Positions 7,589 to 8,785 of a stretch of 64,000 nt of DNA are shown here, piece by piece. Origin of the DNA: Malacoraja senta (taxonomy: Eukaryota); the NCBI GenBank assembly GCA_038087875.1, contig CM075992.1, positions 1,304,001 through 1,368,000 on the forward strand, in the 5' to 3' direction. Positions within the stretch are counted from its first letter, which is position 1, and each line of letters starts with the position of its first letter. The notes beneath the pieces were generated by a model that saw nothing but the letters and a program-made list of their open reading frames with translations, made no database searches and was not told where the DNA came from. The translations under genes were made by a program, and so were the position numbers.

Positions 7589-8068
7589 TTTCCCTTTCCG
7601 CAGATGCTGCCTGACTTGCTGCGATTTTCCAGCGTTTTCTGTTTACGTTTTAGATTTCGAGCACCTGCAATATTGTGACTATTTGTTGCTGTGTCCTACT
7701 TACTGTAGATGATAATTCAGCCCCTGCATTAATCATTGCGATAAAATTGATGGGCTGTTGTCAATCCCTGCTGACTGCTGTCTTATCCTATTCTCTTCAT
7801 CGTTGAGTCTAAGATGCTCCTAACACATGCTTCACACTTATATCCATATTAAATTTAATTTGCCTAATTGCGTAACTGATATGAATCAATTGCACATCAT
7901 TTACTGTTGATTCAGTCCCAATGGTGTTCCTTGTTTCAGAGTCATCTACCAAGGAAGACAATGTCCACAGTTGGATTTTTATATACCCATGTGGACAAAA
8001 TTCACTGCGAATGCCTCTCCCCCACCCCATCCAAAAGACAGAGCAGAAACAGGCCATTCAGTCCATCG

Positions 8069-8335
8069 CAGGTCGACAAAAGTGCTGGAGAAACTCAGCG
8101 GGTGCAGCAGCATCTATGGAGCGAAGGAAATAGGCAACGTTTCGGGCCGAAACCCTTCTTCAGACTGGGTCTGAAGGTCAGGGTCTGAAGGTCACGTTCA
8201 GTCAGGGTCTGAAGAAGGGGTTCGGCCTGAAACGTTGCCCATTTCCTTCGCTCCATAGATGCTGCTGCGCCCGCTGAGTTTCTCCAACACTTTTGTCTAC
8301 CTTCGATTTTCCAGCATCTGCAGTTCCTTCTTAAA
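8069..8335. mobile_element. Fold-back Penelope-derived element with hammerhead cores on both strands
   Basis: Minus core at 8136-8163, plus core at 8208-8236; exact 14-bp TSD cattcagtccatcg at 8055-8068 and 8336-8349. Confidence 0.85.
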
Positions 8336-8785
8336 CATTCAGTCCATCGAGTCTACACCGCCATTCAATCATGGCTGATCTATCTTTCCCTCTCAAACCC
8401 ATTCTCCTGCCTTCCTTTCCTAACCCTTGACCCCCGTACTAATCAAGAACCTATCAACCTCTGCTCGAAAAATACCCAACGACTTGGCCTCCACAGCCGT
8501 CTGTGGCAATGCATTCCACAGATTCACCACCCTCTGATTCAAGATAGTCCTCCTCATCTTTCTGAAGGTACGTCCTTTTATTCTGAGGCTGTGCCCTCAG
8601 GTCCTAGACTCTCCCACTAGTAGCAACATCCTCTCCTCGTCTACTCTATCCAGACCTTTAATTATTCAGTAGACTTAAATGAGATCCCCCATCATCCTTC
8701 TAAACTCCAGCGAGTACATGCCCAGAGCCATCAAATGTTCGGCATAACTTGACCCAATCACGCCCAGAATCATTCTTCCTCACAT
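8336..8785 (-). mobile_element. CR1/HER1-like 3' fragment
   Basis: Reverse complement of CR1 ORF2 end and 3' UTR. Confidence 0.85.

What the first reader, a model, noticed from the sequence alone, without database searches (positions are those of the whole stretch)
8055..8349. Fold-back insertions with a hammerhead on each strand, inserted as one unit with a 13-15 bp TSD
Seen: head-to-head inverted modules with the ribozyme cores at the symmetry centre (804-1013, 1727-1926, 8069-8335, 12255-12496). Direct repeats enclose the whole palindrome: 14 bp exact here and at 47540/47867, and 13-15 bp with one mismatch at 791/1014, 13149/13343 and 36338/36882. Inference: each palindrome was created in one integration event. 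Its transcript would be a long hairpin with cleavage motifs in both polarities, a viroid-like layout and a possible dsRNA source. Partial inverted ends are known for Penelope elements, but inversion repeatedly centred on the ribozyme suggests template switching linked to the motif.
Basis: partly seen in the sequence, partly recalled or inferred. Interest (0 to 1): 0.7.

Follow-up and report, generated by a model that had tools for sequence, protein, structure and literature searches.

The report
Head-to-head Penelope retrotransposon stubs
This 267-base mirror-image repeat is one real insertion made of two very short ends of a Penelope-like jumping gene, likely built when both cut strands of the target DNA each copied the ribozyme-bearing start of the element's RNA, and it is not a viroid-like element.

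Summary
Observation confirmed. 8069-8335 is a head-to-head repeat inside an exact 14-bp TSD. Removing it restores a host repeat matched without gaps by 35 of 35 spanning paralogs. TSDs bound 9 of 13 such units (nulls 1-2%).

The arms are the hammerhead-plus-tail end of a Penelope-like element (GIY-YIG ORF at 62261-62683, Neptune/Nematis-type linker). Inverted end + one-sided tail + TSD is a published architecture.

The ribozyme centring is not specific to inversion: solo copies end at the same 1-7 nt before the core (17 of 24, against 17 of 26 arms), not at the cleavage site. Only 1 of 13 units keeps a minimal core on both strands, and the hairpin is predicted to bury it (28-36 kcal/mol), so the viroid reading fails.

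Most likely mechanism (about 0.6): both nicked strands prime at the element's two internal start sites (11 of 13 units pair a tailed with an untailed arm; two have a tail-only arm), the cDNAs stop near the same point and are joined. Fold-back plus later deletion remains possible. This scan reported the same structure in other genomes.

The parts
8055..8068 (+). Left target-site duplication (14 bp)
   Evidence: Exact copy at 8336-8349. Both copies share substitutions relative to the commonest paralogous host-repeat words.
8069..8167 (-). Untailed arm: PLE end from -4 to about +95 (0 = C of CUGA), subfamily A1
   Evidence: 95% identical to 62790-62889
8136..8163 (-). Minimal type I hammerhead motif (CUGAAGA, extra A, 4-bp stem II, GAAAC-GUU; stem I only 2 bp)
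   Evidence: Descriptor match; activity not tested
8168..8206 (.). Junction filler made of short repeated pieces (GTCTGAAG and GTCAGG words, one 14-bp period)
   Evidence: Sequence; no other hit in the window
8207..8335 (+). Tailed arm: PLE end from -2 to +126, same subfamily
8209..8236 (+). Minimal type I hammerhead motif on the + strand
   Evidence: Descriptor match; core unpaired probability about 0.001 in the palindromic transcript
8302..8335 (+). About 34-bp PLE 'tail', present on this arm only
   Evidence: Alignment; tail described in PMC3846280, PMC8557442, PMC11167929
8336..8349 (+). Right target-site duplication
8041..8423 (-). Host repeat interrupted by the unit (3' end of an abundant LINE; the label CR1-type is recalled)
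   Evidence: 35 of 35 spanning paralogs are gap-free across the TSD
62261..62887 (+). Longest parent fragment: GIY-YIG C-terminus with CX4CxxC linker, stop at 62683, pyrimidine-rich 3' UTR, hammerhead at 62794 (C3 mutated), end at +92
804..1013 (.). Sister unit with clean centre at 927, tailed left arm, 13-bp TSD
1730..1921 (.). Sister unit with clean centre at 1826, both arms untailed, no TSD found
12256..12496 (.). Sister unit with a short restart piece at the centre, no TSD found
13163..13343 (.). Sister unit, arms start at +8 and about +29, no CUGA core, 13-bp TSD
25402..25607 (.). Sister unit, 14-bp TSD with 2 mismatches
36353..36881 (.). Tail-only arm (+88 onward), about 385 bp of LINE 3' end, then an untailed arm, all in one 15-bp TSD
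47554..47866 (.). Sister unit with three 59-bp reiterations starting at +5/+6, exact 14-bp TSD, no CUGA core
50683..50827 (.). Tail-only arm (+86 to +130) joined head-to-head to an untailed arm (-2 to +95), 14-bp TSD
52686..52993 (.). Sister unit with an aborted -2..+17 piece and 76 bp of another repeat at the centre, 15-bp TSD with 2 mismatches
55372..55656 (.). Sister unit with 60 bp of foreign filler, 11-bp TSD

Best explanation
The palindrome is a single insertion of two extremely short ends of an endonuclease-bearing Penelope-like retrotransposon, likely made when both nicked target strands primed reverse transcription on the element's RNA. Steps: (1) the GIY-YIG nuclease likely cuts both strands 13-15 bp apart (TSD shown; two-strand cutting shown only for the lizard element in vitro). 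(2) One strand likely primes at the tail end (about +126/+130) and the other at about +92, the two ends that all copies use (pattern shown; start sites inferred by analogy). (3) Each cDNA stops 1-7 nt before the hammerhead core, as solo copies do (shown). The likeliest cause is the RNA's 5' end at a TCAGT initiator-like motif; a block at the adjoining C/T tract or splice-acceptor-like site is not excluded. (4) The two cDNA ends are joined, likely through the self-complementary TCAG-T-CTGA or after restarts and jumps that leave filler (junction letters shown, chemistry inferred). The ribozyme sits at the centre because it is the first thing on the template, not because it acts. The product is most likely a dead-on-arrival stub.
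For: TSD in 9 of 13 units vs 2 of 156 and 6 of 389 nulls. Gap-free paralogous empty site, 35 of 35. Parent GIY-YIG ORF runs into the same module. One tailed plus one untailed arm in 11 of 13 units (P = 0.0004-0.011 for tail frequencies 0.23-0.5) and in 9 of 9 TSD-bounded ones. Arms share subfamily in 11 of 12 by script (p = 1e-4; the miss is a word-match error on inspection), mean identity 0.866 vs 0.795 shuffled. In 5 units the untailed arm reaches clearly further 5' than the tailed arm, so it cannot be a plain copy of it (25400, 36352, 50683, 51808, 52686). Tail-only pieces end at +86..+88 three times (50683, 36352, 12794). At 927 the centre base is the one a fold-back from the tailed cDNA would not give (n = 1). 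34 of 37 copies that reach the core stop within 7 nt, about 86-fold the rate per base over +85..0. Loose-end clusters with mixed flanks at the same edge in public contigs of three organisms and in family B. The lizard PLE cleaves and extends both strands, starts RT at two internal sites that bound the tail, is predicted to be a dimer and does not need ribozyme cleavage in vitro (PMC11167929, parts 1-2 of 4 read).
Against: n is 13 units from one window, curated by hand. Palindromes lose centre sequence after insertion (general knowledge), which can mimic non-nested arms; the 5 vs 2 asymmetry is not significant on its face. Shared rare alleles are only weakly enriched (7 in 12 units vs 0.32 per same-subfamily cross pair). 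Two of 13 units are not long+short. In family B, contigs that run on past -5/-6 into element-like upstream sequence (179 + 104) are as many as those with mixed flanks at -2/-3 (124 + 120) in run X2, so the stop is less complete genome-wide than in the window. The depth step at the edge is confounded by subfamily divergence. No RNA start was mapped and no excess of cap-like G was evident by eye. [quoted passage not shown] PMC8557442 ascribes the tail to endonuclease resolution instead.
Confidence: 0.6

Rival explanations
1. One cDNA starts at the tail, stops at the ribozyme's 5' edge, folds back on the TCAG-T-CTGA or stem II palindrome and copies itself; the endonuclease or a homology step ends the second arm at about +92. 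Non-nested arms and fillers come from later deletions and insertions. This includes the published self-priming proposal on an antisense template.
For: Two clean centres lie exactly on the 9-bp intrinsic palindrome (927, 1826). Arms always share a subfamily. The 59-bp reiterations at 47625-47860 have a palindromic junction (CCCTT-AAGGG) that looks like short fold-back synthesis. Self-priming is proposed in PMC3846280 (passages) and EN-mediated resolution of the tail in PMC8557442 (passages).
Against: Second arms end at the same +90..+95 as solo copies. Five units have non-nested arms. Three tail-only pieces end at +86..+88. Centre base at 927. Foreign fillers of 60-385 bp lie inside single TSDs.
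Confidence: 0.28
2. Two independent stubs inserted one after the other, the second targeting the 5' edge of the first.
For: Stubs are very dense (92 alignment pieces in 64 kb). The lizard enzyme cuts near its own ORF-pLTR junction in vitro (PMC11167929). 55370 has 60 bp of filler and arms only 80% identical.
Against: A single outer TSD encloses both arms in 9 of 13 units. Subfamily concordance p = 1e-4. Long+short pairing.
Confidence: 0.05
3. The palindromes are a viroid-like or retrozyme-like RNA species, or a selected dsRNA source, in which ribozymes of both polarities work.
For: At 8069 both strands keep a minimal core and any read-through transcript would form a hairpin of about 99 bp.
Against: Only 1 of 13 units keeps both cores. 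One sense core per transcript, so no unit-length circle. Opening the core and forming stem II costs 28-36 kcal/mol vs 7-8 in solo copies. A single minimal HHR showed no cleavage in vitro (PMC4209133, passages). All 13 centres inspected differ or sit in different subfamily backgrounds, so the unit is not itself an amplifying family.
Confidence: 0.04

Closest known systems
Endonuclease-positive PLE insertions with inverted pLTR, one-sided tail and TSD (Pen2a_Av, PMC3846280; fig. 2 legend of PMC8557442; D. virilis Penelope, PMC2377424)
   Same: Head-to-head inverted 5'-truncated copy, 30-40-bp tail on one end only, one TSD around the whole unit, palindrome at the junction, hammerhead in the pLTR.
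   Different: Here both arms are only about 40-135 bp, no ORF is present, TSDs are 13-15 bp rather than 8-10, and the 5' ends pile up 1-7 nt before the ribozyme core.
Poseidon element of Anolis (PAc) in vitro (PMC11167929)
   Same: Two 3' end classes one tail-length apart, just downstream of the hammerhead; ribozyme cleavage site not used as an end.
   Different: The nuclease here has the CX2-5CxxC linker of Neptune/Nematis, absent from Penelope/Poseidon (PMC8557442). In the parts I read, that paper describes no head-to-head products.
L1 twin priming (recalled from general knowledge; no paper on it read)
   Same: Both target strands prime, giving an inverted 5' part within one TSD; 50683 and 36352 have nearly non-overlapping arms as in that model.
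   Different: Most units here duplicate the same sequence in both arms, and priming is at two fixed internal sites, not at a poly(A) tail plus a random internal site.
Non-LTR retrozymes (PLE-derived tandem type I HHR repeats; bioRxiv 10.64898/2026.07.22.740005)
   Same: Non-coding, PLE pLTR-derived, type I hammerhead.
   Different: Retrozymes are head-to-tail with two same-sense ribozymes. These units are head-to-head. Head-to-tail joints of the same module do exist in the public contigs (62886 to 62795).
Avsunviroidae viroids (recalled)
   Same: Hammerhead motifs on both polarities facing each other in a hairpin (8069 only).
   Different: Genomic DNA insertion with TSD; no pair of same-sense cut sites; no evidence of circular RNA or RNA replication.

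Membership tests
EN+ Penelope-like element | C-terminal GIY-YIG endonuclease with two Cys between GIY and YIG | tested here: met
   Pfam GIY-YIG E 1.3-1.6e-4, at or just under the cut-off, for 57042 and 62261; CxxC before IYIGE and stop at 62683; 49 longer relatives at E<=1e-10, best from rays and sharks
EN+ Penelope-like element | Telomerase-related RT upstream in the same ORF | tested here: inconclusive
   No PLE RT in the window. One of 5 relatives scanned (P0003) has a weak RVT_1 hit (E 9e-5, below cut-off) upstream of GIY-YIG. No RT tree built.
EN+ Penelope-like element | Minimal type I hammerhead in the pLTR with an extra base before stem II and palindromic ACGU | tested here: met
   16 descriptor matches in the window vs mean 0.02 in 50 shuffles; description in PMC4209133 (passages). 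No Rfam match.
EN+ Penelope-like element | [quoted passage not shown] | tested here: met
   11 of 13 units, 9 of 9 TSD-bounded; tail depth 16-24% of body depth in three runs
EN+ Penelope-like element | Inverted 5'-truncated copy and TSD around the whole unit | tested here: met
Neptune/Nematis clades | CX2-5CxxC linker upstream of GIY-YIG | tested here: met
   C-x4-C-x2-C in both window ORFs; definition in PMC8557442. Clade by RT phylogeny not tested.
Non-LTR retrozyme | At least two consecutive head-to-tail units with complete HHR | tested here: not met
   Units are head-to-head; the tandem arrays at 47625 and 34502-35187 lack the CUGA core
Viroid-like RNA (Avsunviroidae) | Hammerheads in both polarities | tested here: inconclusive
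   Motifs present on both strands in 1 of 13 units; activity untested; predicted to be sequestered
Viroid-like RNA (Avsunviroidae) | Unit-length circular RNA released by same-polarity cuts | tested here: not met
   One sense core per strand of the unit
Viroid-like RNA (Avsunviroidae) | RNA-to-RNA rolling-circle replication | not testable with these tools
   Only contigs were available; they cannot show RNA ends, strand or circles
MITE / fold-back DNA transposon | Family of copies with constant internal structure and fixed short TSD | tested here: not met
   Centres differ between units, arms also occur alone, TSD 11-15 bp

The most novel reading that the evidence does not exclude
These stubs are a mass natural record of the unknown late steps of Penelope transposition: a dimeric enzyme primes both target strands at two fixed sites on one sense RNA whose 5' end lies just before the ribozyme. 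Tail-only arms mark collisions of the two polymerases, and junction stutter and captured LINE ends mark telomerase-like restarts and jumps at the template's 5' end. This would explain the tail, the inverted ends and the TSD in one model, with the ribozyme as a bystander.
Probability: 0.45. Interest if true: 0.62.

Novelty: new variant of a known kind. Interest (0 to 1): 0.4.

Why it matters
How Penelope-like elements make inverted ends and a one-sided tail is an open question: published suggestions are self-priming on an antisense template and endonuclease resolution. These minimal units reduce the structure to about 200-300 bp, are very abundant in ray-like genomes and give sharp tests (centre-base polarity, tail-only arms, nested vs non-nested arms). 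They are also a dense potential source of long hairpin RNA. They are not a new ribozyme element or a viroid precursor.

Tried and rejected
No whole genome is held for this window, so no genome-wide map of breakpoints could be made. Pattern scans of metagenome and viral contigs for the core found 0 matches. Rfam gave only hairpin-type chance hits below gathering scores and no hammerhead. Laying public contigs on two solo modules listed no strand-change joint at the ribozyme edge, but only 15 of 137 and 15 of 66 joints were shown and counting was truncated, so this is no evidence either way; one loose end in run X14 reads as a head-to-head junction with a restart. Run X19 is only guessed to be RNA, so its high module depth was not used. 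Paralogous empty sites were found for 1 of 8 TSD-bounded units tested (8069); the other 7 have no spanning paralog in the window. An orthologous empty site was not tested. Cleavage-site anchoring was rejected (2 of 50 ends at +26..+30). A constant spliced leader was not seen: letters upstream of the ends are mixed (agreement 0.34-0.38), and most copies reaching -6/-7 carry the unspliced letters. Rows left out of the 5'-end count: copies in the 57.7-62.7 kb duplicate, the composite arrays at 34390-35190 and 45451-45915, the tail-only piece at 12794, and seven short diverged fragments (7594, 19504, 23370, 27894, 36905, 48453, 48873) whose 5' ends fall at +39..+49 and would lower the 86-fold ratio. 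The 45772 pair was used only in the arm-identity test. A sequence look-up in earlier findings returned only an unrelated hit.

Full report
Setting. The window is repeat-rich animal DNA. Its GIY-YIG fragment has its best named relatives in skates, rays and sharks. No whole genome is held. Module coordinates below use 0 = C of the CUGA core; the predicted cleavage site is between +27 and +28.

Observation. 8069-8335 is a head-to-head repeat of a roughly 100-130-bp module, enclosed by an exact 14-bp direct repeat at 8055-8068 and 8336-8349. A TSD score of 8 or more was found in 9 of 13 head-to-head units and 6 of 21 solo copies, against 2 of 156 cross-paired flanks and 6 of 389 random intervals. 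Lengths are 13-15 bp in 8 of the 9 and 11 bp in one. With the unit and one TSD copy left out, the site at 8055 aligns without gaps to 35 of 35 spanning paralogs of the host repeat; for the other 7 units tested no paralog spans the site. The arms at 8069 differ by 9%, which fits an old insertion and not an assembly fold-back.

Identity. The module is the 3' end of a Penelope-like element. At 62261-62887 a GIY-YIG C-terminus (at the Pfam cut-off) is followed by a stop, a pyrimidine-rich UTR and the same module. The nuclease has the CxxC between GIY and YIG and a CX4CxxC linker, which PMC8557442 (passages) assigns to Neptune and Nematis and not to Penelope/Poseidon. The RT is not in the window; one of five relatives scanned has a weak RT hit upstream of the nuclease. 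The ribozyme is the minimal type I form described in PMC4209133 (passages): 16 descriptor matches against 0.02 in shuffles. Rfam does not detect it. Copies end at about +92 or carry a further 34-38-bp tail; in public contigs tail depth is 16-24% of body depth.

Is the inversion tied to the ribozyme? Only indirectly. 5' ends at -1..-7 occur in 17 of 24 solo copies and 17 of 26 arms (Fisher p = 0.77). Of 37 copies that reach the core, 34 stop within 7 nt; three solo copies run on to -114, -140 and -533 (hand-curated list; dropped rows are named under Tried and rejected). Only 2 of 50 ends lie at +26..+30. In contigs of three public organisms the largest listed upstream loose-end groups lie at 62795 (228, 480 and 380 contigs) and 62791 (129 in one run), with near-random flanks; the reference has a mutation at 62794, so 62795 stands for ends near -2..0. 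In family B, mixed-flank groups lie at -2 and -3, but equally large groups run on past -5/-6 into element-like sequence, so many copies genome-wide are longer. The palindromes are centred on the ribozyme because cDNAs tend to stop there. Why they stop is not shown. TCAGT resembles an initiator (recalled consensus; PMC3846280 notes an Inr-like TCACT in a rotifer pLTR). The same letters also look like a splice acceptor after an 85% pyrimidine tract, and in D. virilis the intron ends at helix I (PMC4209133, passage).

One cDNA or two? The arms share a source: same subfamily in 11 of 12 units by script, p = 1e-4. Shared rare alleles are only weakly enriched (7 in 12 units vs 0.32 per same-subfamily cross pair). 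Several features favour two RNA-templated cDNAs. One arm is tailed and the other not in 11 of 13 units (P = 0.0004-0.011). The untailed arm ends where solo copies end. In five units it extends further 5' than the tailed arm; in two the reverse holds. At 50683 and 36352 the tailed arm is only the tail, stopping at +86 and +88 beside the other start site, and a third tail-only piece at 12794-12831 stops at +87. At 927 the centre base is T on the strand of the tailed arm's cDNA, where a fold-back from that cDNA would give A (one case). Junctions often hold aborted 5' pieces (8168-8206, 12387-12396, 36778-36785, 52800-52819) or 60-385 bp of foreign sequence inside one TSD. PMC11167929 (parts 1-2 of 4 read) shows a lizard PLE cutting and extending both strands, starting RT at two internal sites that bound the tail, and working without ribozyme cleavage. 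Against: small n; later deletions at palindrome centres could produce non-nested arms; two clean centres lie exactly on the intrinsic TCAG-T-CTGA palindrome, which suits fold-back as well as annealing; and the in vitro study saw no strand difference in start-site use. I put two-strand priming at 0.6 and fold-back with resolution at 0.28.

Viroid-like or functional RNA? A transcript of 8069-8335 folds into a -192.5 kcal/mol hairpin. Each transcript has only one sense core. Freeing it and forming stem II costs 35-36 kcal/mol here and 28-36 across five palindromic transcripts, against 7-8 in three solo copies (equilibrium model, co-transcriptional folding not modelled). Only 1 of 13 units keeps both cores. 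A single minimal HHR was inactive in vitro and dimers weakly active (PMC4209133, passage). No circle can be released. dsRNA formation would follow from any read-through, but expression was not tested.

Relation to the literature. Inverted pLTR, one-sided tail, TSD and junction palindromes are described in PMC3846280 (passages), which proposes self-priming on an antisense template, and in PMC8557442 (passages). PMC2377424 (passages) covers the promoter and the 34-37-bp repeat. The retrozyme preprint (part 1 of 5 and passages) treats head-to-tail repeats. PMC6155905 was read in passages. Searches returned no paper whose listing describes ORF-less head-to-head stubs or twin priming for PLEs (0 papers for Penelope + hammerhead + head-to-head; 3 apparently unrelated listings for Penelope + twin priming, not opened). 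The library lacks most subscription papers, and I read no supplements; earlier PLE papers or repeat-database entries may already hold this. Earlier notes of this scan reach the same reading in other genomes (198 findings, at least 32 genomes); they are unreviewed and not counted as support. My two-strand reading was noted before that look-up.

Verdict. A real, single-event insertion of a known architecture in its minimal form. The value lies in a testable model of how Penelope-like elements finish integration. Interest 0.4.

Noticed in passing
window 52296-57493 vs 57694-62712: Tandem duplication of about 5.4 kb at 95-99% identity across the 200-N gap (57494-57693); possibly a haplotype duplicated in the assembly.
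   Followed up: partly
window 52038-52293: Solo tailed module on the - strand split exactly at +92/+93 by 107 bp of another repeat, all within one 11-bp TSD; either a template switch at the second start site or a later insertion.
   Followed up: partly
window 12744-12874: Tail-only piece (12794-12831) lying between two copies of an approximately 43-bp direct repeat, much longer than the usual TSD.
   Followed up: partly
window 34390-35190 and 45451-45915: Composite of 66-bp tandem units (+20..+85) with an embedded short palindrome from another subfamily; 387 bp of it is duplicated in inverted orientation at 99% identity. A +40 to +8 joint like the one inside it is well supported in contigs of three organisms.
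   Followed up: partly
public contigs laid on window 62795-62886 and 63869-63991: Head-to-tail joints of whole modules (6-12 contigs per run) indicate same-sense hammerhead dimers elsewhere in these genomes, the retrozyme-like arrangement that could cleave.
   Followed up: no
window 16138-16260: In this subfamily the nuclease frame appears to end at a CAG-GTAG donor-like site about 100 nt before the pyrimidine tract and CAG at the ribozyme edge: a candidate retained intron as in D. virilis Penelope.
   Followed up: no
window 8203-8240: The + strand core of the main unit has a 4-bp stem I, created by junction filler and one substitution, longer than the 1-3 bp of the other descriptor matches in the units.
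   Followed up: no
window 10692, 36786, 54346: Several modules directly follow LINE 3' microsatellite tails, suggesting read-through templates, template jumps or shared targets.
   Followed up: no
window 4805-5476: Minisatellite with an open frame of about 15-residue repeats; probably non-coding.
   Followed up: no
window 43700-45250: About 1.5 kb (CA)n-type microsatellite.
   Followed up: no
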